A DNA stretch of 64,000 bases from Fusobacteriaceae bacterium UBA2433 (GTDB lineage: Bacteria > Fusobacteriota > Fusobacteriia > Fusobacteriales > Fusobacteriaceae): contig DDQV01000122.1 in assembly GCA_002342785.1 (NCBI GenBank), positions 18,752-82,751 of the forward strand, read 5' to 3'. This document shows positions 1 to 22,714 of the stretch, in pieces. Position numbers and translations under genes: made by a program. The notes under the pieces were generated by a model. That model searched no databases and was not told the origin of the DNA. It saw nothing but the letters and a program-made list of their open reading frames with translations. Position 1 is the stretch's first letter. Each line of letters opens with the position of its first letter.

Positions 1-16
1 ATAATAGCATTATTTT

Positions 17-228
17 AAATTACTGTAATTTTGGCATAAAATAAGGCCACTGAGTAACCTCTTAAGGCTATTTCTGATACCACTAAAGCTACTTTTGAGC
101 ATTTTCATTTTTTCACCTCTGAGTCCCAATAATACCAAGGGTTAGAAGGCTTTATTCTAGGGGGTGGATCTCTCTACAACATATAAATACAAGGGAGACT
201 TTTTAGAGGGGGCTTAGAAGGCAAATGA
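17..228. repeat. Copy 1 of a duplicated non-coding element downstream of the pilin gene
   Basis: Shares AAATTACTGTAATTT (17-31), TAAAATAAGGCCACT and an 89-bp core (140-228) with copy 2; 81/89 identical by manual alignment. Confidence 0.9.
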
Positions 229-269
229 GAGAGGATAAAAAAAAGGATATAATAAAAAATTAAATCTTT

Positions 270-297
270 GTCACCAATTACACAAATTTTCATGAAT
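270..297 (+). repeat. Short CACNAATT(T)A-unit repeat, copy A
   Basis: GTCACCAATTACACAAATTT (270-289) matches the reverse complement of 3784-3803 at 19/20. Confidence 0.7.
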
Positions 298-6922: not shown

Positions 6923-9900
6923 TTATTCACTATTTCTATCTAAGATACTCTCTAATATAAGTTTACTATCACTTCCTTCACCGATTATCCTTATCTTACT
7001 TTCCCTTTGTTTTGTTTGATTTTCAACTGTAGCTTTAATCCCTAAAGATTTTGTGGGTATAAAATAAATTTTTGAAAAAATTTTTTCATGTCCCAATCTA
7101 TCCCAAACTGTAATTTTTAAATCTCCGCGACTTCCTCCATTAAATTTAGAAGTATCTATCTCTATCGTATTATCTATAGACTTACCTTGTATTGTAGAAA
7201 AACTATTTCCATTAAGACCATTTGAATTTTTCCCACTATTACCTGAATCTACTATTTTTCCTCCTATAGTAAAGACATAACTATATCCATCTATTCCAAC
7301 TAATTCTTTAAATAAAGATAGATCTATCTCGATCTTTTCTTCTACTATATCTCCAATGATTTTATCTTGTAGATAGGAAGTATTCACCCTGGTATCTAAT
7401 ATAAATTTAAATTTTACATCATCTCCCTCGACTCCCGATATACTTATTGGAGTAACTAAAATAACATTCATAGAATCTATTAGAAATTTATTATATCTGT
7501 CATCTATCTTGATCTCATTTGTAGAAGTTTCTAAAATATCAAGTAATAGATCTATATTTTTGTTTATATATATTTTTAAATATCTTATATCTGCACCTGT
7601 TCCATAAATTTTAGCAAATATAACCGGATTTATTGTTAATGAACCAGGTCCTCCCTTAGTGAACTTATATATCTCTCCATTATAGTTCACACTCAGATCT
7701 TTATCCCCAACTCTTTGAGTAGTTATATTTTCTCGACTTTTCACCTCTTCATAAACTTTCAAAGTCACATCTTTTGGTTTACTATTGTTTAGGGTAAGTA
7801 TTTCTTTTCTTATTATTTCATTTCCTGCTTTATCTTCTCCCTTTATATAAAATTCTATATCTCTTTCAATTTTACTAGGATCTTTTATTACAAAGTTATA
7901 AGTAACAGTATAAGTATCGATTAAACTTGTGTCTTCAGACCTTTTTATAGTTCCTACTAAGGAATCTATCATATCTAGATCTTCTATTTCTAATAAATAT
8001 CCGCCTTTTTCTTTTTCCCCAATCTCTTGTAGATACAAATTAAAATCTTTTATATCAAACGAAACTTCTATCTGATCTTTATCTTTTACATAGGTAACAT
8101 TACTATTATCTACACTGTTAACCTTATATTTTTTCATAAATGTTTTATTTATTATAGATACATTAGATATCTCTGGAGCTATTGTATCTACCACAATAGT
8201 AGTTTTAGCTAATGGAGTCTTATCATAATTTAGATCTAATATCTTATCAAAATTATTTTCACAGTAATCATCTATACTAATTAACTTACCACTCTTACTC
8301 ATCCCATAGACCTTACCTATATATTCTCCATCTGTTTTATGTTTTTGATCTATCTCAATCTCTCCATCTGTTTCTTTTATTCCTCCTGTATAAAATCCTT
8401 TAGGAGAATAGTGATAAAAAGTTGAAACTCCATAATAACTATTATTTAAATCTAGATCAGCTTTTGTTTTATTATATTTAAAGGCCAATATTCCACTCAG
8501 ATATCGATCATCTACCTTACTTAGTTCTATATTATAATTTTCATTGACATAATATTTTCCATCTGATAGATGAACAGCTATAGGATCATCATTTTTATCT
8601 AATATTGATATCTCAGGTACTATCTCTGTATTATCAATCTTTAATATATCAAATTTTTGATCTCCTATATTTCCATAATTATCCTCCATAGTATTTCTAA
8701 TACTTATAGTTTCGCAACTATCCTTTATTTTTATTTTTTCCCATCTAACTTTAAATTTATGTTTTCCTTCTTTTTCTATTATAGGTATCCCCCATCCTAT
8801 ATTTCCTATATTTCTATAGATATTATTTTTATTTAAATTTTTATCTTCCACTGTTAAAGTTATATCTATTAGATCTCCTGTTTTTACACAACTTCCTGAA
8901 TAATTTAAAATAGAACTAAATTTTGTGCTATTATCTATACTATATCCAGAATAATTATCTATCTCTGTATCTGTAAATAATTTATTACCATCTACTCTAA
9001 CCATAGATTTAAAAAACTCTTTCAATGTTGTGTTTACTAATTTTATCTCGGTTATCATAGGAGGTGTTAGATCTATTTCAACATCTTCTAAGATCTTAGT
9101 TTCGGTAAATAGATCGTTAGTTGCTGTAGCTTCTAAATTAATATATTCTATAGGTATCTCATCTAACTTCCCATCTCTTATTATATCCATCTCTTTATCG
9201 GTTAAAACAACTTTAAATTCATACCATCCATCTTCACCCAAACTCATATCTATACTATCTTTATTTCTATTAAATAATAAGGTCCCATCAGTTTTTAATA
9301 TATTTAAATTATAATCTTTAATTATATCTTGGATGATTATATCTTCTCCATCACCATTAGTTTCATAGTATCTAGATCTAGCTAAAAATTTTATAACTCC
9401 CCTTTTATCTACTATATTTAATTTAGGACAACTTCCAACTGGATCTTTGAACTCTACAACTATTTTTTTTCCTTGAACAGTGTATTGTCTATCCTCTATC
9501 TTAGCTTTTTTATTATCTATAGGATCATCTAAATTTTTTACTACTTTATCCATAGGAACATAATTTTTTCCATCAATTCCAACTAGATCTATCAATTTAA
9601 AATCTACTGTTCTTGTAGTTCCATCATATTTATTAAATGGTGTAATATAAGATAATCTCCATCTTTGAACAATTCCTATATTATTTATAGATTCTAATAA
9701 GGCCCCCCTTACATTTTCACCATCTTGTCCCATCTCATACATAAAAAAATTATTTTCCGTATTATAAAGTTTAAAATCAGTATGATATACGTCGGCTCTA
9801 TCTGATGGATCTATCCCTAATATAGGTATTTCACGATCATCCCACTCCTCCCAATAACTATTATTTTTATTTATTCCCCAAGAATATTTATATCCTAGAT

Positions 9901-11305
9901 TTGGTACTCCTTCATCTTTATATCTTGTTAAAATCAAATTTGTATCTATAGCTGTATTTCCCCTTCTTTTAACATGAAATAATCCTACTAACTTTATATT
10001 ATTAGCCATCCCATTATATGTAAAATTTAGTTTGGAATATAATTTTTCTAACACATTCTCATGATCATATCCAATAGATTCTAAAGTATTTTTTCCAAAC
10101 TTATCTCTCGTATCCATATTTTCATCTGTCAAAAATATTATCATTTTTTCCGACGGTATATCTCCATCATTACTTTCATCTGTTATATTCCCTGAAGAGT
10201 CTAAATATCTTCCATTAGCACGAATTTTTTTTATAGCATAATGAATTCCCCAAGCACTATTTTCTTGACCATGTAAATATCCTAATTCTGTTTTTATATT
10301 ACTAAATGCATCTATCAATTCGTCTAACTCTTTTTCTTTTTTATTTTCATAATTTACTTGCCCTAGGGTAGATCCATCAAACCATTTTTCCTTGTAGATT
10401 GCCATATAATTATCATTCTCATAACTATATATTTTTTCATTCCAATCTCCTATTCTATCACTTGTTTGCTCTGGTCCAAAGGTAATCAAATTATATTTTA
10501 CATCAAATCCCTTGCTATAGAGTTTCTCACCAAAAACTCTTAATCCATCTTTTATAGCATCTACTTTTTGTTGCATATACTTTGAGTTATCAATTACAAA
10601 TACTATATCGAGGGGAAATAAAATATTTTTTTTAGTCGATTCCTTTAATATTATTTTTTTATCTTCTTCTATACCTTTTTTTTCTTCTGTTTCCTCATTT
10701 TTCTCAGCTATCTTGGAATTTGGTAAAAGATTTGACCTAAGGTTATCTGTAGTTAATTTTATCTTTCTTTCCATCTTAGTCATAAAATCTATATCTACTT
10801 GAATCCCTTCATTACTAGTAGAAGTAGTTATACAATCTATCTTATAGATATTATTTTCCTTATCAAATTTCTCACTATCTATATTTTCTGTATCTATATA
10901 AAATGAATCATAATCTTCATTTGTAATAATCTTATAGTTTCCATCATGACCGTTTTTTACTGTATAAAGTTGAATCATATATTCTCCTATGGGTAATCCT
11001 TTTATCTCTATATTTTTATTGGAATATTTATACGATATTATCGTATTTAAAAATTTTAATTCTTTATCTACCCTAGGATCTATAATTATATCTATATAAT
11101 CTTTATTGTAACAACTATCTGTATCTTCCAAAAGAAAAGCTTTCATCTTCAAAGTTCCCACACTAATTTCTTCATCTCCTATAACTATCATCTTTTCATC
11201 ATTTAAATTATTTATAGGATTGATATTTCTATATGGATTCCAAGAATATTTAGGAAGCTCTGCTGTATATATCTTTTTTTCTACCATATAATCTAAATTT
11301 TCCAT
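6923..11305 (-). CDS. C-terminal part (1460 aa) of giant vWA/Ig-like surface protein paralog 2
   Basis: vWA fold start LDIVFVIDNSKYM and later IIFLTDE; Ig-like D..PP.I / DTIAP.I / DKAGN motifs; colinear with the C-terminal part of 13203-21740; no signal peptide of its own. Confidence 0.8.
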   Translation of the reverse strand: MENLDYMVEKKIYTAELPKYSWNPYRNINPINNLNDEKMIVIGDEEISVGTLKMKAFLLEDTDSCYNKDYIDIIIDPRVDKELKFLNTIISYKYSNKNIEIKGLPIGEYMIQLYTVKNGHDGNYKIITNEDYDSFYIDTENIDSEKFDKENNIYKIDCITTSTSNEGIQVDIDFMTKMERKIKLTTDNLRSNLLPNSKIAEKNEETEEKKGIEEDKKIILKESTKKNILFPLDIVFVIDNSKYMQQKVDAIKDGLRVFGEKLYSKGFDVKYNLITFGPEQTSDRIGDWNEKIYSYENDNYMAIYKEKWFDGSTLGQVNYENKKEKELDELIDAFSNIKTELGYLHGQENSAWGIHYAIKKIRANGRYLDSSGNITDESNDGDIPSEKMIIFLTDENMDTRDKFGKNTLESIGYDHENVLEKLYSKLNFTYNGMANNIKLVGLFHVKRRGNTAIDTNLILTRYKDEGVPNLGYKYSWGINKNNSYWEEWDDREIPILGIDPSDRADVYHTDFKLYNTENNFFMYEMGQDGENVRGALLESINNIGIVQRWRLSYITPFNKYDGTTRTVDFKLIDLVGIDGKNYVPMDKVVKNLDDPIDNKKAKIEDRQYTVQGKKIVVEFKDPVGSCPKLNIVDKRGVIKFLARSRYYETNGDGEDIIIQDIIKDYNLNILKTDGTLLFNRNKDSIDMSLGEDGWYEFKVVLTDKEMDIIRDGKLDEIPIEYINLEATATNDLFTETKILEDVEIDLTPPMITEIKLVNTTLKEFFKSMVRVDGNKLFTDTEIDNYSGYSIDNSTKFSSILNYSGSCVKTGDLIDITLTVEDKNLNKNNIYRNIGNIGWGIPIIEKEGKHKFKVRWEKIKIKDSCETISIRNTMEDNYGNIGDQKFDILKIDNTEIVPEISILDKNDDPIAVHLSDGKYYVNENYNIELSKVDDRYLSGILAFKYNKTKADLDLNNSYYGVSTFYHYSPKGFYTGGIKETDGEIEIDQKHKTDGEYIGKVYGMSKSGKLISIDDYCENNFDKILDLNYDKTPLAKTTIVVDTIAPEISNVSIINKTFMKKYKVNSVDNSNVTYVKDKDQIEVSFDIKDFNLYLQEIGEKEKGGYLLEIEDLDMIDSLVGTIKRSEDTSLIDTYTVTYNFVIKDPSKIERDIEFYIKGEDKAGNEIIRKEILTLNNSKPKDVTLKVYEEVKSRENITTQRVGDKDLSVNYNGEIYKFTKGGPGSLTINPVIFAKIYGTGADIRYLKIYINKNIDLLLDILETSTNEIKIDDRYNKFLIDSMNVILVTPISISGVEGDDVKFKFILDTRVNTSYLQDKIIGDIVEEKIEIDLSLFKELVGIDGYSYVFTIGGKIVDSGNSGKNSNGLNGNSFSTIQGKSIDNTIEIDTSKFNGGSRGDLKITVWDRLGHEKIFSKIYFIPTKSLGIKATVENQTKQRESKIRIIGEGSDSKLILESILDRNSE

Positions 11306-11395
11306 TATTTCTTTACCTTTAGGTTTCTTTAAAATTCTAAATATAATTTTATCATAGTTTAATATTACTCCATTTGTATTTTGAAATCCTTCACT

Positions 11396-13060
11396 TCAGC
11401 TATACACAACCTTATTTTTAATATTTTCAACTTGTTCTAACCCCTGCCCCATATCATCTGTATAAAATTCTAATTTAAAATTGTTATCACCTATTAATTC
11501 ACCCTTAGTTTCTGAAATAATTTTTTCTATCATTATTCCTTCTACATCTTCATCTACTAAATATCTCCACCTATTATTATAAAATCTAAATCTATTTATA
11601 AACTTATAATCTCCTCCTGACAAATATCCTTTTAATGTTGTTTCATAATCTACAGATTTTATCTGTCGATATCCACATCTTTCTGGAGTTAATATCCTAT
11701 CTTTTATTTGATAGCTTTGATCTTTCAGCTGATAATCTTTCCTTTTTCCTGAACTATCTAAAGATTCAAAAATTATCCACTGCTTAGGATATTCGTCATA
11801 TTTTTCCTCTATGGTAGGTTCAATATATATTCCAACTTGTTGTTGTTTTATAAGATCCTTTCCCTCTATCTCAAATGAAACTTCCCTTTGATCTCCTTTT
11901 TTTTCTATAAAATCACTTTCATAACTTCCTTCCCATCTATATACATATTTTTTATTATTTTCATCTATTGTTATTTGGTCATCTACAACTTTATAATTAG
12001 TTCTACCTATATTTATACAAGTTCCACTGAGACTAATAGGAGTAGATATAATTATATCTGAAACTGTATTTACAGGTATCTTTCTTTTTTCAGTTATATT
12101 TTTTAATTTTATTTGAGGTAATTTTTTTGAAGTCAGAGTTATTATATTTAGTTTTATATCTTTATAGTTAGATATATCTATATCTTCTAACCATCCTATA
12201 TTTTCAACCTCTATAGAACTTTGATTTTTTCCATAAAAAGTCAGAGTACTTTCATGGGTAACTACTACATAGTTTCCAATATTATTATTATTTTTATATC
12301 TAAGGGTATATAGATCTAAATTATAAGATCTTTTATCTTCTAATCCAATAAGTTCAAACTTACCATCTATATATCTTCCTGTTATTCCATCTTTAACTAT
12401 TTTTTGCTGAATTTTATTATCTTCAAATACAAAATCTATATAATCATCTTTTTCATAAAAATTTTTTAAATTATCTTTCTCTTCTATTTTTTTTATAGGA
12501 CGAATTTCATTTATTTTTTCCCCTAAATAGAGTCTATAGACCACCTCTTGATATTTGTATGCTATAAGATGCTCTAACTTATATTCATCATCATAGAAAA
12601 AAGTATTTTTAGAATTTTCAAGATCTTCTTCCCTAAAATTAGTTATAGAAGAAGGCACAACATAACTTTCATCTATCATTTTTTTATATGTTGGGATATC
12701 TTTTCTATCATCTATTTTTGTTAAACTAAAAGTAGATTCTTTTGGTTTTTCTTTATTTTTTTTTAATTTGAATTCCACCATAGGCCTATTAATACCTTCA
12801 TATCTATAACGTTTATTTTCAATCTTACTAAATTCAGATTTATCATAAGTAGAATCTGAATTTAAAAATTCTTTTAAACTCATATCTCCTATTTCAATTG
12901 AAAATACAGAATGTTCATTTTCTAAATCTAATCCATCTATAATATACTGATCAGATTTAACTAAGTTATCTTTAGCTATCTGAGAATATATATATTGATC
13001 ACTAGAAAATATTACAACACTTAAAAATAAAAATAAAAACAATACCCACAAACCCTTCAT
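11396..13060 (-). CDS. N-terminal part (554 aa) of giant surface protein paralog 2
   Basis: Sec-type signal MKGLWVLFLFLFLSVVIFS; one A repeat, one B domain and the first half of a diverged A repeat; ends at the in-frame TGA. Confidence 0.8.
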   Translation of the reverse strand: MKGLWVLFLFLFLSVVIFSSDQYIYSQIAKDNLVKSDQYIIDGLDLENEHSVFSIEIGDMSLKEFLNSDSTYDKSEFSKIENKRYRYEGINRPMVEFKLKKNKEKPKESTFSLTKIDDRKDIPTYKKMIDESYVVPSSITNFREEDLENSKNTFFYDDEYKLEHLIAYKYQEVVYRLYLGEKINEIRPIKKIEEKDNLKNFYEKDDYIDFVFEDNKIQQKIVKDGITGRYIDGKFELIGLEDKRSYNLDLYTLRYKNNNNIGNYVVVTHESTLTFYGKNQSSIEVENIGWLEDIDISNYKDIKLNIITLTSKKLPQIKLKNITEKRKIPVNTVSDIIISTPISLSGTCINIGRTNYKVVDDQITIDENNKKYVYRWEGSYESDFIEKKGDQREVSFEIEGKDLIKQQQVGIYIEPTIEEKYDEYPKQWIIFESLDSSGKRKDYQLKDQSYQIKDRILTPERCGYRQIKSVDYETTLKGYLSGGDYKFINRFRFYNNRWRYLVDEDVEGIMIEKIISETKGELIGDNNFKLEFYTDDMGQGLEQVENIKNKVVYS

Positions 13061-13135
13061 AATTTAAAACCCCCTCATAAACTTTTATTATCTCTATACT
13101 ATCCTTTTTTTTATTTCCTTTTCGTTATAAAATAA

Positions 13136-13170
13136 ATAGACTAGAAACATATTTTATGTTTCTAGTCTAT
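13136..13170 (-). terminator. Terminator between the two giant paralogs
   Basis: Perfect 15-bp arms ATAGACTAGAAACAT/ATGTTTCTAGTCTAT, followed on the minus strand by TTATTTT. Confidence 0.75.
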
Positions 13171-13202
13171 AAACTATAATTTTATTTATTTTTATCTATC
13201 TT

Positions 13203-16200
13203 TTAATCTTCATTACTTCCATCTATACTATTTTCTATACTAAACTTACTATCATCTGTATCTCCAAATATATTTACTTTACTCTTTCTCTGTTTTGCTT
13301 CATCTTCTATTGTTGATGTTATTCCAGTAGGCTTAGTAGGAATAAAATAAGTTTTATCAAAAGTTTTTTCATTTCCTAATCTATCATAGACAGTAAAAGA
13401 TAAAGTTCCTTTTGCTCCCCCTATAAAATCAGAAGTATCAATTATCTTAATTCCACTTATAGAATTACCACTAATAGTAGTAGATGTTTTTCCTTCTAAG
13501 TCACTTTCAACAACTTTTTCAGAAGTTTTTCCTTCTACAGTAAAGATATATTCATATCCTTCTACACCTGATAGCTCCTCTATCTTAGAAAGATCTATCT
13601 CAACATTTTTACCATTCATACTTCCTATTATTTCATTATTTAAATAAGAGGTATTTACCTTAGTATCCACTACAAATTTAAATTCTTTAGGATTTCCCTC
13701 TACACTTGATACATTTATAGGAGTAACCCTTACTTCATTAACTCCTTCACCAAAACCAAAAGTAACTTCTATTACTTTTTCCTCGTCACCACCTGATACT
13801 TTTATAATTTTTTCCCCTTCTATCCTTCCATCTTTACCTATTGTTTGTATCTTTAATTTTCCTATCTTTTCATCTTCAGAACTACTCGATGGAATAGTCA
13901 CATAGATCCCTGGATTTGGGTTATTTGATCCCAACCCTCCCTTAGTAAATTTATATCCATCTTCTATTATATTTGATTTTTCCTTTTGATAAAGTTCTTC
14001 ATAGGTATTTATCTTAATATCCCTTGGTATACTTATAGTAACTTCTTTTGTTGTTTCATTTCCAGCCTTATCTACAACTACTATTGTAACCTTTACTGAC
14101 CCACCATCTTTTAAATCACTTCTTTTAACTTTTAATGAATAAATTATAGGGTTTGAACTATCATTAAAGGTTCCAATCTCTTCATTGTTTTTCCCTAATA
14201 ATTTGTGTCCCCCTTGTCCTTCTATAAACTCATTATTATTATAATTAAAATCTTCTATCTTAAAAGATAGATCAAAGTAATAATAATTTTCAATATCCTG
14301 ATCTGAACTTTCAATTGATTCTTTTATTGGTAAACTAATAATTCTAGGAGCTATTGTGTCTACCCTAATTACAATATTTTCTCCACCTAAATTATCCCCC
14401 ATTATTGTTTTGAAATCATTACTAGAATAATCTGTAATATCTTTTAATTTACCACTAATATTCATTCCATAAATTTTAGATCTATATTCTCCATCTGTCA
14501 AATGACTATCAGAGGTATCTATACTTACAGGAATAACACTACCTTCCTCTCCTCCTAAGTAAACATTTTCATCTCCATCTAACTTATAATAATATTCTGA
14601 ATCTCCATAATATATTTTATTGCCATCTTCATCTGTTTTTGAATCTGCTTTAGTTTTATCATAATTTAATATTCCTATTCCAGCTAATAGATCTTTATTA
14701 GTAGTCCCTAAATCAATACTATAGTTGGAATTTACATAGTATATCTCTTCTATAGGTTCTATATCTTTTACTGTTGGAACTACTTCTATATCATTATTAT
14801 CTACATTTAAAATTTTTCCCTCTTGAGAAGCTTCAATTTCATATTCATTTTTAATATTATTAATTACTTTTATTTCAGAATCTGAAACACTTATTTCATA
14901 CCAAGTAACTTTAAATTTATTTGTTTCATCTTCTGAATCTGATGAAATCTCTATTATACTTGGTTTTATATCTATAAGATCACTACCTTGATAAATTTTT
15001 ATCCCCTTTAAAATATTATTTTGATAAAGATTTTTTCCCTCTACTATTAATTCAATAGATATTTTATCTCCAGATTTTCCAGTACTTCCAGTTGTCGGCA
15101 GACCAAAACTTTCCTCTACTTCATGATCATATCCTGAATATTTCAATATATCATCGGAAGAAAAAGTTTTATCTTTATCTAGTGAATACATTGTATCTAA
15201 AAAATTAAAGAGAGTTTTATTTACTAGAGTTACATCTGTAATTAAGGGAGTAGATAGATCTACTATTACATCTGTTAATATCTCTGTTTTGTTAAATAAA
15301 TCAGTGACTATAGTCGCTTCTAAATTAATTTTTTCTGTTGATTTTACAGTTGTTGATTCTTTTAGTATATCCATCTCTTCATCTGTTAATATAGCCTTAA
15401 ATTCATACCAACCTTGATCTCCAAATGTATCGGTCAAAGTATCTGTTGAATCAGATAGTTCTTTTAACTTAGTGTTACTGATTTTTAACTCTATCCCCTC
15501 ATCATTTGTTCCACTCAATAATTTTTTTAATCCTAGGTCTCCTAATTTTATCCTATATATATTTTCTTCAGATTTTTCAAAATCTGTATTCCCTAAAAAT
15601 TCATCCAATAAATCAGATGTTTCAGAACTATTATTAAGTTCATACCAAGTATCAGATCTATCAGATACAATTGCTTTAAATTTATCTTTTTCAATATTAA
15701 TATTAGTTTTATCTACTATTAAATTTAATGTTGTAGAAGATTTTGTAGTATTCCCACTAATAATAGCTTCTTTTTCAAAATTTGTTAATTCTACTTTATA
15801 GTTTTGATCTTCATCTATAGTATATCTCGCCTTATCAATATATTCTAAGATATCTACATTAGAGTTATTTGTAATTGTTACATCAGATTTCACCCTTCCT
15901 GCTAAAGCTTGAGAGATTAAATTTTTAGTAACTCTATTTTCTAGCCAACCTTCATCAGATAAACTCATCGTAATATTCTTTGGACTAAATAAAAAGTTAT
16001 TATTACTATCTAATACATCTAACTTATATTCATTTATCATTTTTTCTACAACAATAGGTTTATTATCTTCATCGAATTCATTATACCTTGCTTTCCCTCT
16101 AAAAGTTATTCTGCCATTACCCTCTACTAAATTTAATTTTAAATTATCTACACTTGGATCTTTAAATTCTAACGCTAACTTTTCTTCCTTTACTGTATAT

Positions 16201-19200
16201 TGTTTATCCTCAACTTCATTTAAATTTTTTATCTCTCTAGTAATATTAATTTTATCTTTTCCTATAAGATTTACTAGTTCAAAATCAATAGTTCTAGTTG
16301 TACCGTCATACTCATTGAATGGTGTCAAATAAGACAGCTCCCACCTTTGAATAATTCCTAAGTTGTTCATAGATAAAGTTAAAGCTTTACTTACATGCTG
16401 TCCTTCATTACCCATCTCATACATGAAGAAGTTATTAGCAGTATTATAGTATTTAAAATCTGTATGGTAAATCTCTTTTTCATCAGAGGGGTATTCACCT
16501 AATATAGGGACTTCGTTGTCATCATATTCTGTCCAATAATTACTGTTATCTCTTTTTCCATTGGTATAATAATATTCTAAAGTTAAATCTCCATAATTAG
16601 AATCTGGTTTTATCTTAATCTTTTCATATTTTTTTAAATCCTTATCTATTGTTTTTTCAACAGTATTTCCCCTCTTCCTTACATGGAAAATACCATTTAG
16701 ATCTATATTGTCTGGCATATCTTTAAAATTGCTATTCAATTTTGCATATAACTTTTCTAAAACATCCCCACTACTATAATTTCCACCTGGTATTTTAGAA
16801 ACTCTATCACCATCCATATTCTCATCAGTCAAGAAAATTATCATCTTCTCTGATGGCATATATGCGTTTTGAGGTACAGCACCTGAGTTTCCTTTTTCAA
16901 CTATCTCCCCTGAATAACTTAAATATCTTCCATTAGTTCTTAATTTATCTATAGCATAATGAAGACCCCAAGCACTATTTTCTTGATCGTAATCATAACC
17001 CCATAGAGCATTTATATTATCAAATGCATCTATTAACTCTTCTAAATCATTTTCACGAGATGAAGTTTCTCCTAACTTAGATCCATCAAACCATTTATCT
17101 TTATAAACTGCCATATAATCTCGATCATATAAAGTAACACTATTACGCCAGTCTCCTGTGGGGTATAGTTCTTTCTCTTTATTATAAAAATTATAGTTAT
17201 AATAATAGTTATGATTTTGCTCTGGCCCAAAGGTAATTAAATTATATTTCACATCAAATCCCCTATCTAATAGTTCTTGTCCAAAAGCTGTTAATCCATT
17301 TTTTACTGCATCTATCTCCTCTTGCATAGAACCTGAATTATCTATAACAAAAACTATATCTAATGGAAATAAAAATCTTTTCATATCAGATCCTTTTAAT
17401 GTTATATTTCCAGCTTCTCCTATCCCCTCTTTTTTTCCTGTACCTTCATTTATTTCTTCCATATTAAAACTACCAAATTTAAGATTTTCAACCTTTAAAT
17501 CTATCTCCCTTTCCATCTTGGTAATGAAGTTTACATTTACTCGGATATCTCCCTTATCTTCTCCTATAGTTATAAAATCTATCTTATGTATATTGTTCTC
17601 TTTCTCAAATTCCTCACTGGCAATATCTGATATATCCATCTTAAATTCACTTTTATTTTCACGGGTGATAACTTTGTATCTTCCATCATGACCTCTTTTT
17701 ATACTATAAAATTGAATAATATAATCATCTACCGGCAGCCCAACTATTCGAAGTTCATTGTTGGTTTGTTCATACGAAATTATTGCATTGTTAAATGTCA
17801 TAGTTTTACTGGTAGTAGCTCCTAGAACTATATCCACATAATCTTGGTTATAAGTTTCTTCATTTATATTTCCGTATAAAAATGCTCCTAATTTTTTATT
17901 TCCCTCAACTGTTGGTTCAATTAAATTTATAGGATTACTATCTCTATAAGGATTCCAAGAATAATCTTTACTAGTACTTTTTTTAGTTACTCGAAATATA
18001 ACCTTGTCATAACTAAGGATCTCTCCATTTGTATTCAGCGGACCTTCATTCCATCTATAGGTTACTTTATTTCCTATTTCATTTATTTTTTCTATACCGT
18101 CACCTTTATCATCTGTATAAAATATAAGTTCATCCTTATCTTCATCTTTTAAAATTCCTTTAGATTCGGTGATGGTTTTTTCAATTATTAAACCTTTCGA
18201 ATTGCTCTCTTCTGGATATGCCCATAATCCATTGCTATAAACAAACTCTTTTATTAAACTATGGGTATTTTCACCTTTTAAATAATCATCTAAACTACTT
18301 GCATAACTTATAGTTTTTAATTGTTTATAACCCTTTCTTTCAGGACTTAATACTCTATCTTCAATATTATAATCTTGTTTTTTAAATCCTCTTGCAGGAT
18401 TAAATTCAAACATCACCCATTGATAAGCGTCTCCCGTATCTAAGTTTACTGGAGTAGGTTCAATATATTTTCCTATTAAATCTTTATCTTTATAAGTTTC
18501 ATCTAAAGTTGAATATCTTCTACTCCGAAAATTTATTTCTCTAATTTTTCCATTTTTTTGTTCAAACTCTGTCTCATAACTTCCTATCCATTTATAAACA
18601 TATTTATTTTCATCATTAATATTTATTTGGTTATCTATAACTTCATATTCCTCTCCACCTATCCAAATTTTATTTAACTCAATCTTCTCAGTATTTATAT
18701 ATTTATAATTTTCTTTTTTTTCTTCTCCGTCTCTTGTTTCTATTAAATCTAAAATATCTAATTTTTTTAAATCTTCAGTCGTTATGGTTATCATATTTAA
18801 TTTAATTTTTTTATACTCAGATATATCAATATCTTCAAGCCAAATAGGATCATCTAAAGAAGCTATGTTTTTTCCAATAAAATCCAAGCTTCCTTCATAA
18901 GTTACAGCCACATAATTTCCAGTTTCATTATTGTTTCTATATCTTAAAGTATAAAAATCTAAATTGTATTTTTTATTATCTTCTAATCCCATAATTTCAA
19001 ATTTACCCTCTATAAATCTTGCTTTTATTCCATCTATTTCTAGTTCTTGTGTAGATTTATTATTTTCAAATACAAAATCTCTATAGTTATTACCACTTAA
19101 ATCAAAATCATTTTCTTCAATATTTTTTATTGGACGTAGTTCATCGTGTTTAGATCCTGTGTATAACCTAAACAATACCTCTTGATGTTTATATGCTTTT

Positions 19201-21740
19201 ATATGTTCTAATTCATATTTATCTTCAAAGGTAAATGTATTCTTAGATGATTCTAAATCCTGTTCTTTAAAATTAGATATAGGAACAGGTATCATATAAT
19301 TTTCATTTATTTTATTTTTCAAAACATTATTTTCTTCAACTGTTAATTCAAATTTGCCCTTCTCAGGCTCACCAATATTTGAATCTATCTTAAATTCTAT
19401 TATAGATTTAGGTTCACCCTCATATTTATATCTTTCTTTTTCTTCTGGGATGAATTTACCATCAACACCTATAATATCTGATCTCAATAATTCATCTAAG
19501 CTACCATCTTCATCAATTGTTTTTATAGTTTCTAATCTTTGGTAAAAATCTATTTTATATCTTCCAGACTCTTTTTCATATTTCAACAAGTTTTCCTTTA
19601 TTATTTGTGAATAGATCCATTGTTTACTAGGTTTTGGAGTAGGATTTGGATTTATTATATTTTTTCCTTCGAAAATTAAACTACTTTCATAGGTAACAAC
19701 CACATAGTTTCCAGTATTGTTATTATTTCTATATCTTAAAGTATAAAAATCTAAATTATAGGATTTATTACTTTCTAATCCAATAATTTCAAATTTACCC
19801 TCTATGAACCTACCCTTTATTCCATCTTTTTCTACCTCTTGTTCAGATTTATTATTTTCAAAAACAAAATCTATATAACTATTATTAGTCAAACTATTGT
19901 CTTCTATTTTTTTTATTGGTCTGAGTCCATATTTTCTATTTCCTGTATAAAGTCTAAAAACTACTTCTTGATATCCATAACCTGATTTATTTTCATCATC
20001 TTCATCATATGTAAATATATTTTTAGTAGGATCTGAATTAACTTCTATAAAATTAGTTGTAGGAGCAGGTATTTTATATCCTTCACTTATTATCTCTTCA
20101 TCCTCAAATATAAAAATATTTCTCATATATTTAAATGTTCCATCAAAAGGTTCCCTTTTATTCTTAGTTAATTTAAATTCAACCATGGGTCTTTTTTCAC
20201 CGCTATATTCGTATACTTCTTTATTCTTTTGAGTAAAGTTATCTTCTTCAAAAGAACCATCAGAACTTAAAAATTCCTTTAAACTAGTTTCTACTTCTAA
20301 AGATTTTAGCTTTTCTATATCTTCATAAAAACTTATATCATAATAATATAGCATAACTCCAAAAATTTCTGAACTCGTTTTATCTAATTTTTCTTTTTCT
20401 ACCTGAGAATAGATATACTGTTCTCCAATTTCTATGTTTGATTCTGACTTTATTGGTTCTATATAAATTCCAAATAAATTATTTACAGAGTGTTTTTTAT
20501 CATTACTCAAAGTTCTTTCAGCATCAAAAGAAACTTTCCTCTCTTTACCTTCTTCCTCTACAAATTTAGTAATATAAGTTCCTTCCCAGCCATATATATA
20601 TTGTTTCTTATCCCCTTGTCCAGGTACTTTTTCTATTGTTTTATGATCACTGTCTAGAGTATAAACTACTCCATCTATCATGACTTCATTTAAAACAACT
20701 TGTTTCATCTCTATTTTTGAATATTCTTCATCATCATTCTCTCTAGTCTCTCTTATATTTGAAAGTTCCATAGATTTTACATCCATATTTGTTATACTGA
20801 TCAAATTTATCTCTATTTCATTATAATTATCTGAACTAATACCTTCTATCCTAGTTCTAATTACAGCTCGATCTTCATCATCTGAAATCTCAGTTTTACC
20901 TTCAAATTCTAAGGTGTTTTCATAAGTAGCCACAACATAATTTTTATCACCATTACTTCCATATCTCAAAGTATAAAAATCTAAATTATAAGATTCATTA
21001 TTTTTTAAACCTATAATTTCAAGTTTTTCATCTTTAAATTTAGCTATTATTCCATCTTTACTAATTGTCTCTTCACTTCCATCATTTTCAAATACAAAAT
21101 CTACATAACTATTATCAGTTAAATTATTGTCTTCTATTTTTTTTATAGGTCTTATTCCCTCTTGTTTATTGCCTGTATAAAGTCTAAAAACAACTTCTTG
21201 ACTATCGTATTTTCCACTATTACTACTAACTTCAGTATAGGTAAATGTATTTGTTTCACCACTCATTTCTTTAAAATCAGTTGTAGGAGCAGGAATATTA
21301 TAATTCTGATCTATTATAGTTTCCTCTTTATTCTTTTTATAGTAAATATATTGAAATGTCCCATTATAATTAGAATTTTTATTTTTAGATAATTCAAATT
21401 TAATCATTGATCTATTTTCACCATAATAAAAATAATCATAATCAGAATTATAATTATTATTATTATTATTATTTTTGGAAAAATCCGTGCTGCTATAAAT
21501 CTCTTTAGATTCCAATATTTCTTCTATACTATAATTTTCCGTTTCTAAAGAAGTAGCTTTATCTAATTGATTACTAAAATCAATATAGTAAATATATCCA
21601 TGATTTCCTGTTTCATTAGTTGTTTTTAAATCACTTTTTTTTACCTGAGTATATAACCATTGATTAGCTGAAAAAACACTCATACTCAGCAGTAAAAATA
21701 ATATACATATCTTATAAACTTTCATTATTTTCTTCTTCAT
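13203..21740 (-). CDS. Giant (2845 aa) secreted repeat protein with vWA domain and Ig-like modules; putative adhesin (paralog 1)
   Basis: Signal peptide (about 25 aa); three ~250-aa A repeats, two B domains and a diverged fourth A repeat; vWA with intact MIDAS DNSGS; DTIAP/DKAGN Ig-like motifs; AAGGAGG RBS 8 nt upstream. Confidence 0.8.
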   Translation of the reverse strand: MKKKIMKVYKICILFLLLSMSVFSANQWLYTQVKKSDLKTTNETGNHGYIYYIDFSNQLDKATSLETENYSIEEILESKEIYSSTDFSKNNNNNNNYNSDYDYFYYGENRSMIKFELSKNKNSNYNGTFQYIYYKKNKEETIIDQNYNIPAPTTDFKEMSGETNTFTYTEVSSNSGKYDSQEVVFRLYTGNKQEGIRPIKKIEDNNLTDNSYVDFVFENDGSEETISKDGIIAKFKDEKLEIIGLKNNESYNLDFYTLRYGSNGDKNYVVATYENTLEFEGKTEISDDEDRAVIRTRIEGISSDNYNEIEINLISITNMDVKSMELSNIRETRENDDEEYSKIEMKQVVLNEVMIDGVVYTLDSDHKTIEKVPGQGDKKQYIYGWEGTYITKFVEEEGKERKVSFDAERTLSNDKKHSVNNLFGIYIEPIKSESNIEIGEQYIYSQVEKEKLDKTSSEIFGVMLYYYDISFYEDIEKLKSLEVETSLKEFLSSDGSFEEDNFTQKNKEVYEYSGEKRPMVEFKLTKNKREPFDGTFKYMRNIFIFEDEEIISEGYKIPAPTTNFIEVNSDPTKNIFTYDEDDENKSGYGYQEVVFRLYTGNRKYGLRPIKKIEDNSLTNNSYIDFVFENNKSEQEVEKDGIKGRFIEGKFEIIGLESNKSYNLDFYTLRYRNNNNTGNYVVVTYESSLIFEGKNIINPNPTPKPSKQWIYSQIIKENLLKYEKESGRYKIDFYQRLETIKTIDEDGSLDELLRSDIIGVDGKFIPEEKERYKYEGEPKSIIEFKIDSNIGEPEKGKFELTVEENNVLKNKINENYMIPVPISNFKEQDLESSKNTFTFEDKYELEHIKAYKHQEVLFRLYTGSKHDELRPIKNIEENDFDLSGNNYRDFVFENNKSTQELEIDGIKARFIEGKFEIMGLEDNKKYNLDFYTLRYRNNNETGNYVAVTYEGSLDFIGKNIASLDDPIWLEDIDISEYKKIKLNMITITTEDLKKLDILDLIETRDGEEKKENYKYINTEKIELNKIWIGGEEYEVIDNQININDENKYVYKWIGSYETEFEQKNGKIREINFRSRRYSTLDETYKDKDLIGKYIEPTPVNLDTGDAYQWVMFEFNPARGFKKQDYNIEDRVLSPERKGYKQLKTISYASSLDDYLKGENTHSLIKEFVYSNGLWAYPEESNSKGLIIEKTITESKGILKDEDKDELIFYTDDKGDGIEKINEIGNKVTYRWNEGPLNTNGEILSYDKVIFRVTKKSTSKDYSWNPYRDSNPINLIEPTVEGNKKLGAFLYGNINEETYNQDYVDIVLGATTSKTMTFNNAIISYEQTNNELRIVGLPVDDYIIQFYSIKRGHDGRYKVITRENKSEFKMDISDIASEEFEKENNIHKIDFITIGEDKGDIRVNVNFITKMEREIDLKVENLKFGSFNMEEINEGTGKKEGIGEAGNITLKGSDMKRFLFPLDIVFVIDNSGSMQEEIDAVKNGLTAFGQELLDRGFDVKYNLITFGPEQNHNYYYNYNFYNKEKELYPTGDWRNSVTLYDRDYMAVYKDKWFDGSKLGETSSRENDLEELIDAFDNINALWGYDYDQENSAWGLHYAIDKLRTNGRYLSYSGEIVEKGNSGAVPQNAYMPSEKMIIFLTDENMDGDRVSKIPGGNYSSGDVLEKLYAKLNSNFKDMPDNIDLNGIFHVRKRGNTVEKTIDKDLKKYEKIKIKPDSNYGDLTLEYYYTNGKRDNSNYWTEYDDNEVPILGEYPSDEKEIYHTDFKYYNTANNFFMYEMGNEGQHVSKALTLSMNNLGIIQRWELSYLTPFNEYDGTTRTIDFELVNLIGKDKINITREIKNLNEVEDKQYTVKEEKLALEFKDPSVDNLKLNLVEGNGRITFRGKARYNEFDEDNKPIVVEKMINEYKLDVLDSNNNFLFSPKNITMSLSDEGWLENRVTKNLISQALAGRVKSDVTITNNSNVDILEYIDKARYTIDEDQNYKVELTNFEKEAIISGNTTKSSTTLNLIVDKTNINIEKDKFKAIVSDRSDTWYELNNSSETSDLLDEFLGNTDFEKSEENIYRIKLGDLGLKKLLSGTNDEGIELKISNTKLKELSDSTDTLTDTFGDQGWYEFKAILTDEEMDILKESTTVKSTEKINLEATIVTDLFNKTEILTDVIVDLSTPLITDVTLVNKTLFNFLDTMYSLDKDKTFSSDDILKYSGYDHEVEESFGLPTTGSTGKSGDKISIELIVEGKNLYQNNILKGIKIYQGSDLIDIKPSIIEISSDSEDETNKFKVTWYEISVSDSEIKVINNIKNEYEIEASQEGKILNVDNNDIEVVPTVKDIEPIEEIYYVNSNYSIDLGTTNKDLLAGIGILNYDKTKADSKTDEDGNKIYYGDSEYYYKLDGDENVYLGGEEGSVIPVSIDTSDSHLTDGEYRSKIYGMNISGKLKDITDYSSNDFKTIMGDNLGGENIVIRVDTIAPRIISLPIKESIESSDQDIENYYYFDLSFKIEDFNYNNNEFIEGQGGHKLLGKNNEEIGTFNDSSNPIIYSLKVKRSDLKDGGSVKVTIVVVDKAGNETTKEVTISIPRDIKINTYEELYQKEKSNIIEDGYKFTKGGLGSNNPNPGIYVTIPSSSSEDEKIGKLKIQTIGKDGRIEGEKIIKVSGGDEEKVIEVTFGFGEGVNEVRVTPINVSSVEGNPKEFKFVVDTKVNTSYLNNEIIGSMNGKNVEIDLSKIEELSGVEGYEYIFTVEGKTSEKVVESDLEGKTSTTISGNSISGIKIIDTSDFIGGAKGTLSFTVYDRLGNEKTFDKTYFIPTKPTGITSTIEDEAKQRKSKVNIFGDTDDSKFSIENSIDGSNED
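21453..21473 (-). repeat. (AAT)7 in-frame microsatellite encoding poly-Asn
   Basis: Seven ATT units on the plus strand; protein SKNNNNNNNYNSD. Confidence 0.85.
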
Positions 21741-22242
21741 CAGTATCTCCTCCTTTATTCAGTTCTATTTTTATTTTTTCTGCTTTATCAAATTCATCTG
21801 TACTTCTATATAGATTATAAAGCCTTATATTTATTTTCTTAGTCTCATCTTTTGATACTTTATTTTTTAACTCTACCAATGTTGGTATACTAAACTTTCT
21901 ACTGTATCTATATCTATCTATCTCGTCTAATAAATCATCTACTTTTTTTACTTTTTTTATCTCATCTGTTTCATCTAAAATTTCATTTTTTATTATTTCT
22001 AAAGCTTTATCTTCCTCTGCTTCTTTTTCCTTTCTTTCTTTTATAATAATTTTATTTCTTTTTATAGTTTCTTTTAATTCTTGTTTTGCTTCTTTTAGAT
22101 CTTGTTGTAATTTTTTTTCTTTTTCAACTTTTAATATTTCTTGCCTACTTTTCATTACTACCTCTTCTTTTTTTGGACGCAATATAAACAATATTAAAAG
22201 CCCAAACAATATTACTATTAATTTTAAATATTTTTTTCCCAT
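21712..22242 (-). CDS. Hypothetical protein with N-terminal membrane anchor and coiled coil
   Basis: GGAGG RBS; hydrophobic N-terminus; E/K-rich helix; 3' end overlaps the start of the giant gene by 29 nt. Confidence 0.75.
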   Translation of the reverse strand: MGKKYLKLIVILFGLLILFILRPKKEEVVMKSRQEILKVEKEKKLQQDLKEAKQELKETIKRNKIIIKERKEKEAEEDKALEIIKNEILDETDEIKKVKKVDDLLDEIDRYRYSRKFSIPTLVELKNKVSKDETKKINIRLYNLYRSTDEFDKAEKIKIELNKGGDTDEEENNESL

Positions 22243-22437
22243 AATTTTCCTCCAACGACTTTATAAATTTTCACTCATTAATTATTTGTCTAAAATTTAT
22301 TTATATAATATAGATTTATTTTATATATTACTAAGCCTTCTTAAAAACTCCTTTATTGTTGTCTTATCTATTTAATTTTACACTATTTTTAATTATTTTA
22401 CCATCGATATCAATTTTGTTATCTTATTTTTAATTAC

Positions 22438-22467
22438 AAAAAAAGCCAAGAAATAAATTCTTGGCTT
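22438..22467 (-). terminator. Terminator of rpsF-ssb-rpsR
   Basis: AAGCCAAGAA/TTCTTGGCTT stem with a U-tract on the minus strand. Confidence 0.85.
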
Positions 22468-22480
22468 CAAAAGTAATTTC

Positions 22481-22714
22481 TTACTTCTCCATGTTTGTGT
22501 AAGGTAATAAAGCGATGTTTCTAGCTTGCTTTATTGCTCTAGTTAATTTTCTTTGTAACTTAGCACTTGCTCCAGTTACTCTTGCAGGATTGATTCTACC
22601 TTTATCAGACATGAATCTTTTTAATAAATCTGCATTCTTATAGTTTAACTCTTCAGCTTTAACTCTTAACTTTGCTCTTTTTCTTCTCTTTCTGAATTCT
22701 GCCAACTCAGTCAC
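22481..22714 (-). CDS. rpsR: 30S ribosomal protein S18
   Basis: YKN..LL.RF.S..G.I.P.R.TG..AK.QR.L..AIK.AR..ALLPY. Confidence 0.97.

What the first reader, a model, noticed from the sequence alone, without database searches (positions are those of the whole stretch)
12228..21662. Unrecognised ~250-aa repeat domain (A) and companion B domain build both giant proteins modularly
Seen: a module QW/YIYSQ..K..L ... IPAPTT.F.E ... QEVVFRLYTG ... RPIKKIE ... DFVFEN ... DGI..RF..GKFEIIGL ... YNLDFYTLRY ... YV.VTYE..L.F.GK occurs at about 20895-21662, 19662-20423 and 18872-19625, and once in paralog 2 (about 12228-13000). A diverged copy precedes the vWA in each gene (DKVIFRV...NPIN.IE...L.I.GLP...Y.IQ.Y). 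A ~140-aa B domain ending G.YIEP occurs twice in paralog 1 and once in paralog 2. Architecture: SP-A-B-A-A-B-A'-vWA-Ig(n) versus SP-A-B-A'-vWA-Ig(n). I cannot assign A or B to a known family; the beta-strand-like pattern suggests a stalk or lectin fold (inference).
Basis: partly seen in the sequence, partly recalled or inferred. Interest (0 to 1): 0.7.

Follow-up and report, generated by a model that had tools for sequence, protein, structure and literature searches.

The report
Lineage-specific beta-sandwich repeats in giant adhesins
The repeated A and B modules are real and match no described sequence family, but A folds as an ordinary pair of fibronectin-III-like beta-sandwich domains, so they are most likely the variable-length arm of two giant surface adhesins of a marine Psychrilyobacter, not a new kind of domain.

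Summary
Giant 1 (13203-21740, minus strand, 2845 aa) reads SP-A-B-A-A-B-A'-vWA. Paralog 2 (6923-13060, one in-frame TGA) reads SP-A-B-A'-vWA. The A copies are 42-53% identical to each other (BLAST E 1e-30 to 1e-49).

Pfam, NCBIfam and PDB sequence profiles do not recognise A or B. An A-B profile found only 23 clusters among 1.84 billion representative proteins, and 5 of 101 Fusobacteriaceae genomes in 3 of 15 genera. Full-length hits all show the same giant vWA layout.

AlphaFold2 gives A (pLDDT 84.5, pTM 0.84) as two beta-sandwich subdomains, not one domain. Foldseek aligns its whole length to tandem fibronectin-III modules such as cytokine receptors and fibronectin (probability 0.96-1.0, but E about 1e-3 and TM 0.33-0.46). 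B is all-beta in the model; its fold was not searched on its own. A' is a diverged full-length A (hhalign P 3.4e-5).

A second strain differs from giant 1 almost only in three patches. Two of them cover the N-terminal subdomains of A1 and A2.

Verdict: these are new sequence families with a very common fold, most likely an extender arm with variable exposed subdomains. Interest is modest.

The parts
13203..21740 (-). Giant protein 1 (2845 aa): SP-A1-B1-A2-A3-B2-A'-vWA-long C-terminal beta-rich region
   Evidence: ORF list and translation; module map
21669..21740 (-). Sec-type signal peptide of giant 1 (residues 1-24, ...SVFS/ANQW). No Cys lipobox and no prepilin G/FTLIE motif.
   Evidence: Read directly from the translation; inference from the sequence pattern
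20895..21671 (-). A1 (residues 24-282). Carries a poly-Asn insertion.
   Evidence: HMM E 3.5e-113; alignment
20427..20894 (-). B1 (residues 283-438), ends GIYIEP
   Evidence: HMM E 3.8e-66; alignment
19659..20426 (-). A2 (residues 439-694). A Pro-rich linker NPNPTPKPS (window 19632-19658) follows it, with no B in between.
   Evidence: HMM E 9e-121; translation
18867..19631 (-). A3 (residues 704-958), the unit modelled. A-N subdomain is about 19224-19631 and A-C subdomain about 18876-19187.
   Evidence: HMM E 1.4e-129; AF2 pLDDT 84.5, pTM 0.84; Foldseek hits to tandem FnIII modules
18405..18863 (-). B2 (residues 960-1112), ends GKYIEP
   Evidence: HMM E 6e-74; all-beta in the A-B model, block pLDDT about 65-90
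17541..18404 (-). A' of giant 1 (residues about 1113-1400), a diverged full-length A copy directly before the vWA
   Evidence: hhalign A vs A' P 3.4e-5 over 224 columns; cross HMM hits
17328..17360 (-). Start of the vWA domain, DIVFVIDNSGS, with an intact MIDAS D-x-S-x-S
   Evidence: Pfam VWA/VWA_2 sub-threshold hits at residues 1461-1516. The same site hits in distant homologues, once above threshold.
6923..13060 (-). Paralog 2: SP-A-B-A'-vWA-..., interrupted by one in-frame TGA at 11396-11398
   Evidence: The same 554 + 1454 aa split occurs in a second assembly.
12224..13006 (-). A of paralog 2 (residues 19-279)
   Evidence: HMM E 1.5e-122
11765..12220 (-). B of paralog 2 (residues 281-432), ends GIYIEP
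   Evidence: HMM E 5.9e-71
10799..11764 (-). A' of paralog 2 (residues about 433-754). It contains the TGA.
   Evidence: A' HMM E 3.1e-139; junction translation

Best explanation
A and B are lineage-specific beta-sandwich modules. They build a variable-length N-terminal arm on Sec-exported giant vWA surface proteins of Psychrilyobacter and a few related Fusobacteriaceae.

Each A is a pair of FnIII-like sandwiches with a well-defined relative orientation. A-N is fast-evolving. A-C is conserved and keeps an FnIII-like 'GL(P)xxxYxLxxY' strand motif. B is a third all-beta domain whose central roughly 13-residue hairpin motif can be repeated.

The core A-B-A'-vWA is kept in all full-length relatives. 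Extra A/B units are added or lost at the N-terminus, probably by recombination between the similar A-C parts. Examples are A1-B1-A2 in giant 1 and an extra B in other species.

The arm mainly acts as an extender that positions the MIDAS-bearing vWA domain. That is about 10 sandwich domains in giant 1 against about 5 in paralog 2. The A-N subdomains form its exposed, strain-variable surface.

Shown: the repeats, their restricted distribution, the absence of any family match, the predicted fold of A, and the mosaic variation between strains. Inferred: the extender role, the recombination mechanism, surface exposure, and the fold class of B.
For: - Repeats and architecture.
- No sequence family.
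- Fold of A: AF2 pLDDT 84.5, pTM 0.84, with all five models at 82.7-84.5. DSSP gives ten strands in residues 3-136, a helix at 140-146, then seven strands in 149-252.
- Foldseek PDB for A: two-domain FnIII modules aligned over about 270 columns, which is the full length. IL-2R-beta 5m5e_B has E 9.6e-4 and probability 1.0; IL-21R has TMt 0.46. EPOR, fibronectin EDB-8, DCC FN5-6 and Dscam FNIII23 also appear.
- A-B model (pLDDT 72.7): hits three-domain Ig/FnIII arrays over 350-490 columns, including 1fnh (probability 0.98), Saf and CfaB pilins, titin A84-A86 and C3 MG domains. BFVD gives the same kind of hit.
- Marginal sequence echoes at the GL..Y motif: 1fnh at E 2 and the Y_Y_Y domain in A' of P0023.
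- Variable architectures among homologues: A-B-A-A-B, A-B-A-B, B-A-B, A-B and A-A.
- A-N is less conserved than A-C: 43% against 66% mean identity within the genus, 32% against 48% overall.
- Second strain (L016): differences fall in residues 1-150, 451-610 and 2441-2620, with dS 0.18-0.38. dS is about 0.002 or less across residues 151-450 and 611-2440, and 0.007 in the last 225 codons.
Against: - There is no experimental or localisation evidence. Which end of the protein is attached to the cell is unknown.
- Foldseek E-values are weak (about 1e-3) and TM scores low. The fold assignment rests on predicted models built from shallow alignments of 14-26 sequences.
- The conserved A-B-A' core next to the vWA, together with the hypervariable A-N subdomains, would also fit a direct binding role rather than a passive spacer.
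- The strain comparison uses a single metagenome contig at about 7x coverage. Its 5' divergent patch also covers the upstream orf176, so it is not specific to A1-N.
Confidence: 0.55

Rival explanations
1. The A modules, and possibly B, are themselves the ligand-binding part. On this reading the two-sandwich elbow works like a cytokine-receptor homology module, and the variable A-N subdomain sets specificity for a host or substrate ligand. The N-terminal array would then be the distal adhesive tip rather than a spacer.
For: - The top structural matches are ligand-binding two-FnIII receptor modules.
- A-N diverges faster than A-C.
- A-N is where a second strain differs, with omega 0.5-0.56 in the patches against about 0.1 elsewhere.
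- The modules sit at the mature N-terminus.
- A-B-A' is retained in every full-length relative.
Against: - The structural matches are generic for any tandem FnIII pair.
- Omega is below 1.
- Residues invariant across the 26 A units are mostly aromatic or Gly/Leu, which suggests core positions. No conserved polar pocket was identified.
- No lectin or CBM family is hit.
- A3 does not vary between the two strains.
Confidence: 0.25
2. The A/B arm docks the giant protein onto the type IV pilus or its machinery. On this reading the protein is a pilus-associated or pilus-secreted adhesin that plays the role PilY1 plays elsewhere, and A/B mediate that association.
For: - Both giants sit directly upstream of pilB (MshEN + T2SSE), pilC, an ABC/ABC-2/TPR trio and a pilin gene.
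- The order is the same in a congener, which carries four pilin genes, and in L016.
- vWA domains are a known theme in T4P adhesins: PilY1 (PMC9210963, PMC7541494) and S. sanguinis PilB (PMC8179133).
Against: - In the two other genera that carry the family, the giants lie next to Rnf genes or next to M20 peptidase/MreC genes and an integrase-family gene, not pil genes. The linkage may therefore be inherited synteny within one genus.
- There is no PilY1 C-terminal domain and no prepilin leader.
- Nothing ties A or B specifically to pilins.
Confidence: 0.1
3. The repeats have no selected function. On this reading they are a decaying or expanding low-constraint region of pseudogenising genes.
For: - Paralog 2 carries an in-frame TGA inside A' and a broken MIDAS motif (DNSKY).
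- A1 has a poly-Asn tract.
Against: - Giant 1 is an intact 2845-codon frame.
- The A-B-A' core is conserved across three genera at 20-30% identity with the same layout.
- Omega is below 1 in the variable patches, and there is near-complete identity elsewhere.
- The AF2 model of A is confident.
Confidence: 0.03

Closest known systems
Tandem fibronectin type III modules (cytokine-receptor homology module; fibronectin FnIII pairs)
   Same: Predicted A aligns over its full length to two-FnIII modules. A-C is a seven-strand sandwich of about 104 aa with a GL..x.Y..x..Y strand motif like the FnIII E-F region.
   Different: There is no significant match to Pfam fn3 or any Ig-like HMM. Identity is 5-10%, TM only 0.33-0.46 and rmsd about 11 A. 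A-N has about ten strands rather than seven.
Ig-like extender repeats of giant bacterial adhesins (for example BIg repeats of SiiE or RTX adhesins of the LapA/MpIBP type, some with a vWA ligand-binding region). Comparison from general knowledge.
   Same: A very long surface protein built of many beta-sandwich modules plus a vWA domain. Repeat number varies between strains and species.
   Different: It has a Sec signal peptide, with no RTX repeats and no T1SS-type features detected by Pfam. The repeat unit is a heterogeneous A-N/A-C/B triplet of about 410 aa rather than one roughly 100-aa domain. The modules lie N-terminal to the vWA.
vWA tip adhesins of Gram-positive sortase pili (RrgA / GBS104 type). 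Comparison from general knowledge.
   Same: A vWA/MIDAS domain is carried on Ig-like stalk domains.
   Different: There is no LPxTG motif, no Cna-B Pfam match and no conserved Lys for an isopeptide bond. The organism is a diderm fusobacterium and the protein is 5-10 times longer.
PilY1/PilC and the modular pilin PilB of S. sanguinis (type IV pilus adhesins with vWA domains; PMC9210963, PMC7541494, PMC8179133)
   Same: A vWA-containing putative adhesin is encoded next to pilB, pilC and pilin genes.
   Different: There is no PilY1 C-terminal propeller domain and no class III (prepilin) leader. Linkage to pil genes is absent in the other genera.

Membership tests
Fibronectin type III (Pfam fn3, PF00041) | Significant match to the family HMM | tested here: not met
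   There is no fn3 hit at E up to 10 on 26 A units, at E up to 1 on the whole proteins, or on 21 B units.
Fibronectin type III (fold level) | Seven-strand beta-sandwich of about 100 aa that superposes on solved FnIII domains | tested here: met
   This applies to A only. AF2 gives pLDDT 84.5. Foldseek aligns its full length to tandem FnIII modules with probability 0.96-1.0, E about 1e-3 and TM 0.33-0.46. Scores are weak, so this shows resemblance of fold, not family membership.
Fibronectin type III / Ig-like (fold level), B module | Isolated B superposes on a known beta-sandwich | tested here: inconclusive
   B was modelled only inside the A-B unit (block pLDDT about 65-90, 11 strands). Three-domain Ig/FnIII arrays align over 350-490 columns, but the output does not report which query residues are aligned.
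Bacterial Ig-like domains (Big_1/2/3 and similar) and Cna-B | Match to any of these Pfam HMMs | tested here: not met
   None appears for A or B. The only Big_13 match is weak (E 0.065) and lies far downstream at residues 2540-2569.
Lectin / carbohydrate-binding module | Sequence or structural match to a lectin or CBM family | tested here: not met
   No such Pfam hit. No lectin or CBM appears among the top 50 Foldseek matches.
vWA domain (context of the modules) | Pfam VWA match and MIDAS D-x-S-x-S motif | tested here: inconclusive
   Giant 1 scores 18.4-19.4 bits, below the cut-offs of 23.8 and 27, and only profile positions 1-57 are matched. The same site hits in four distant relatives, and P0023 reaches 26.1 bits, above threshold. 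The motif is DNSGS in giant 1 and DNSKY in paralog 2. phmmer against PDB finds nothing.
PilY1/PilC type IV pilus adhesins | C-terminal PilY1 propeller domain, and a gene in a pilus cluster | tested here: not met
   No PilY1-family Pfam hit at E up to 1. Adjacency to pilB/pilC holds only within the genus.
RTX / T1SS giant adhesins | RTX nonapeptide repeats, C-terminal T1SS signal and no Sec leader | tested here: not met
   No HemolysinCabind or related hit. An N-terminal Sec-type leader is present.

The most novel reading that the evidence does not exclude
The A-N subdomains are exchangeable specificity or antigenic cassettes on a cytokine-receptor-like two-sandwich elbow. They would sit at the tip of a giant vWA adhesin that is functionally coupled to the adjacent type IV pilus system in Psychrilyobacter. 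Strains would re-tune attachment to their invertebrate hosts or substrates by recombining these cassettes and by changing A/B copy number.
Probability: 0.15. Interest if true: 0.55.

Novelty: new member of a known kind. Interest (0 to 1): 0.3.

Why it matters
Psychrilyobacter is a frequent gut associate of marine invertebrates, and how it attaches is unknown. One genome paper lists only pil genes and a hemagglutinin as candidate colonisation factors (PMC10580919).

These two tandem giant vWA proteins are plausible colonisation factors. Their N-terminal A/B arm is where copy number differs between species and where sequence differs between strains.

For annotation, A, B and A' define two or three domain families that Pfam and NCBIfam lack. 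Adding them would turn about 1100 'blank' residues per protein into recognisable modules.

In fold terms the result is ordinary: tandem FnIII-like sandwiches in a giant adhesin.

Tried and rejected
- Pfam and NCBIfam on whole proteins and on every isolated A and B unit gave no consistent family. The only recurring item was DUF1093 in 4 of 21 B units at E 0.011, taken as noise.
- PDB sequence-profile searches with A (4 and 26 sequences) and B (21 sequences) gave nothing except 1fnh at E 2.
- phmmer of the vWA segment against PDB gave nothing.
- The search for related loci in genome contigs with the A-B alignment confirmed no locus; this search is limited by its word patterns. The genome search was used instead.
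- A possible B-like element after the vWA (giant 1 residues 1783-1833) gave HMM E 6e-5 and hhalign P 9e-5, but over only 25-29 columns. It was not accepted as a domain.
- A and B are not detectably related to each other. The only hhalign match is the shared boundary 'QW(I/V)..' that was included in both alignments.
- Conserved linkage to pil genes outside the genus was looked for and is absent.
- An intramolecular cross-link was considered because Q150, T244, E246, R155 and D185 of A-C are invariant or nearly so.
- BFVD Foldseek returned only generic Ig-like viral glycoproteins and phage proteins.
- A look-up of earlier scan findings by sequence returned nothing.

Full report
**Layout**

The region holds two tandem genes on the minus strand. 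Giant 1 runs 13203-21740 (2845 aa). Paralog 2 runs 6923-13060 and appears as two ORFs of 554 and 1460 aa. The two ORFs are one frame interrupted by a single TGA at 11396-11398. That codon aligns with Trp in giant 1 ('KVTYRW' against 'KVVYS*'). Both proteins start with a Sec-type signal peptide. Neither has a lipobox or a prepilin motif (read from the sequence).

**Observation check**

Hits between copies reach E 1e-30 to 1e-49. HMMs built from the window's own copies give these envelopes:
- A1: residues 24-282.
- B1: residues 283-438.
- A2: residues 439-694.
- A3: residues 704-958.
- B2: residues 960-1112.
- Paralog 2: A at 19-279 and B at 281-432.

A copies are 42-53% identical overall. Identity climbs from about 20-40% in the N-terminal half to 60-82% at the C-terminus. 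DNA identity rises in the same way from 54% to 87%. A2 and A3 are joined by a Pro-rich linker with no B between them.

The 'diverged copy' A' before the vWA is also real. hhalign of an 18-unit A alignment against a 13-sequence A' alignment gives a collinear 224-column match (A 3-246 to A' 2-267, P 3.4e-5, probability 72%). A against the post-vWA region gives nothing. In more distant homologues the A and A' HMMs cross-hit down to E 5e-9. The A' HMM also hits the C-terminal part of A1 at E 1.3e-7. The architectures SP-A-B-A-A-B-A'-vWA and SP-A-B-A'-vWA are therefore confirmed.

**No known sequence family**

- Pfam and NCBIfam on the whole proteins show only sub-threshold vWA hits at residues 1461-1516.
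- Scanning all 26 A units and 21 B units one by one at E up to 10 gives no recurrent family.
- Profile searches of PDB sequences give nothing. The one exception is fibronectin 1fnh at E 2, on the 'GLEDNKKYNLDFYTLRY' stretch.

**Distribution**

- A word-indexed search with residues 25-1112 found 11 proteins. The named ones are 'vWA domain-containing protein' of Psychrilyobacter or a Fusobacteriaceae MAG.
- An exhaustive HMMER search with a 14-unit A-B profile against 1.84 billion representatives found 23 proteins, 9 of them below E 1e-30.
- Among 101 genomes of the family, 5 carry the module, in 3 of 15 genera. The window's genome shares its genus with the genome whose 66,042-bp contig matches the longest-contig length listed for the P. 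atlanticus protein.
- All full-length hits are proteins of 1900-2850 aa with the core SP-A-B-A'-vWA.
- N-terminal additions differ: A-B-A-A-B here and in P0004, A-B-A-B in P0005, B-A-B in P0006-P0011, A-B in P0012-P0014 and paralog 2, and A-A in P0019.
- A and B were seen only in this protein family.

**Fold**

The A-B unit (14 sequences) gave a moderate all-beta model with pLDDT 72.7 and pTM 0.67. Its PDB matches are tandem Ig-like/FnIII arrays. They include TCR chains, fibronectin 1fnh (probability 0.98, E 7e-4), Saf and CfaB pilin chains, titin FnIII triplets and C3 MG domains. Three-domain targets align over 350-490 columns. TM is low, as expected when inter-domain angles differ.

A alone, modelled with a 26-sequence alignment that includes the distant relatives, gave a good model. 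pLDDT was 84.5, pTM 0.84, and all five models scored 82.7-84.5. The model has three parts:
- A first sandwich of about ten strands (residues 3-136).
- A short helix (residues 140-146).
- A seven-strand sandwich (residues 149-252) with one disordered loop (residues 171-179).

Foldseek aligns the whole length (about 270 columns) to two-domain FnIII modules: IL-2R-beta, IL-21R, IL-4R-alpha, EPOR, fibronectin EDB-8, DCC FN5-6 and Dscam FNIII23. Probabilities are 0.96-1.0, but E is only 1e-3 to 1e-2, TM 0.33-0.46 and identity 5-10%.

In distant relatives the conserved strand reads 'PGxIEIFGLPxGxYxLELYSFRY', which resembles the FnIII E-F motif. One A' gives a marginal Y_Y_Y hit there.

A is therefore a pair of FnIII-like sandwiches, not a single 250-aa domain. 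It shares the fold without being a member of the sequence family. B is all-beta with 11 strands at block pLDDT of about 65-90. BFVD added nothing specific.

**Variation**

A-N is less conserved than A-C: 43% against 66% mean identity within the genus, and 32% against 48% over all 26 units.

A second assembly (ENA metagenome contig L016) carries the same locus. Its flanks are 99.7% identical to the window. Its giant 1 differs at 124 residues, and almost all of them fall in three patches:
- Residues 1-150: signal peptide plus A1-N.
- Residues 451-610: A2-N.
- Residues 2441-2620.

Within the patches dS is 0.18-0.38 and omega 0.34-0.56. dS is 0.002 or less across residues 151-450 and 611-2440, and 0.007 in the last 225 codons. 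This is a recombination mosaic rather than point-mutation drift. The 5' patch continues upstream through orf176, so it is not specific to A1-N. The comparison also rests on one contig at about 7x coverage.

P0005 has a single A where giant 1 has A2 and A3. That A is A2-like (85% identical) over most of its length. Over the last about 40 residues it is about equally close to A3 (93%) and A2 (90%). This is compatible with gain or loss by recombination in the similar A-C parts, but does not prove it.

**Context**

The gene order on the minus strand is rpsF-ssb-rpsR, orf176, giant 1, paralog 2, pilB, pilC, an ABC ATPase, an ABC-2 permease, a 228-aa protein and a type IV pilin. orf176 has an N-terminal TM helix and a Lys/Glu-rich region and overlaps the start of giant 1. 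pilB carries MshEN and T2SSE domains.

The order is identical in a congener and in L016. In the two other genera the giants lie next to Rnf genes, or next to M20 peptidase/MreC genes and an integrase-family gene. The pilus link is therefore suggestive only.

The giants lack a PilY1 domain, RTX repeats, LPxTG and a prepilin leader. The one Psychrilyobacter genome paper found does not mention them (PMC10580919).

**Interpretation**

The best reading (0.55) is a variable-length beta-sandwich arm that positions the vWA/MIDAS domain. It would have about 10 sandwiches in giant 1 and about 5 in paralog 2. The A-N subdomains would be its exposed, recombining surface.

The main rival (0.25) is that the A elbows are themselves the binding sites. 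A role in docking to the pilus (0.1) or no function at all (0.03) is less likely.

The modules are new sequence families with a very common fold, found in a familiar kind of protein. The rating is therefore 'new member of a known kind' with modest interest.

Noticed in passing
window 11396-11398 (and L016 about 20310-20312): The in-frame TGA that splits paralog 2 is also present in an independent metagenome assembly. The genes there are called as 554 + 1454 aa and the junction sequence is nearly identical. It is therefore not a sequencing error of this assembly. It aligns to a Trp codon of giant 1 and lies inside A'.
   Followed up: partly
window 21300-22499, 19800-20399, 13800-14399: Nucleotide differences between the window and strain L016 within giant 1 are concentrated in three patches (up to 69 differences per 300 bp), while the rest of giant 1 is almost identical (only 5 further differences). 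Paralog 2 shows a uniform divergence of about 1-2%, and the flanks are 99.7% identical. The locus is a recombination mosaic.
   Followed up: yes
B units of P0012, P0013 and the first B of P0008; window B2 about 18600-18690: The centre of B contains a roughly 13-residue motif, 'xIxIGGxxYxVxDNx', predicted as short hairpins. There are about two copies in the window's B units but about five or six tandem copies in some homologues. B therefore has an expandable hairpin insert.
   Followed up: partly
window 21712-22242 (minus strand); L012 1877-2410: orf176 has an N-terminal TM helix and a Lys/Glu-rich region, and overlaps the start of giant 1 by 29 nt. It is conserved in the congener (63% identity). 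A 177-aa protein of similar build, with no detectable sequence similarity, precedes a giant in another genus. It may be a partner or anchor protein.
   Followed up: partly
L016 8635-9289, compared with window 16-289: Strain L016 has an extra insertion of about 650 bp between rpsR and orf176. It contains an 81%-identical copy of the repeated element that lies downstream of the pilin gene in the window. The element is therefore mobile or repeatedly recruited.
   Followed up: no
window about 21450-21473 (giant 1 residues 90-97): A poly-Asn tract lies inside A1-N. Strain L016 is 11 residues shorter overall, with its A1 unit ending 7 residues earlier, so this may be a slippage-prone spot.
   Followed up: no
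window 10577-10609 against 17328-17360: The MIDAS motif is DNSGS in giant 1 but DNSKY in paralog 2. Paralog 2 therefore carries both a premature stop and a degenerate metal site.
   Followed up: partly
G029 (contigs C18 and C14) and G025:C38: Other genomes also keep the giants in tandem pairs. One congener has a third copy (2475 aa) on another contig with two adjacent A matches (A-A-B). In G025 a gene with an integrase core (rve) domain sits between the two giants.
   Followed up: no
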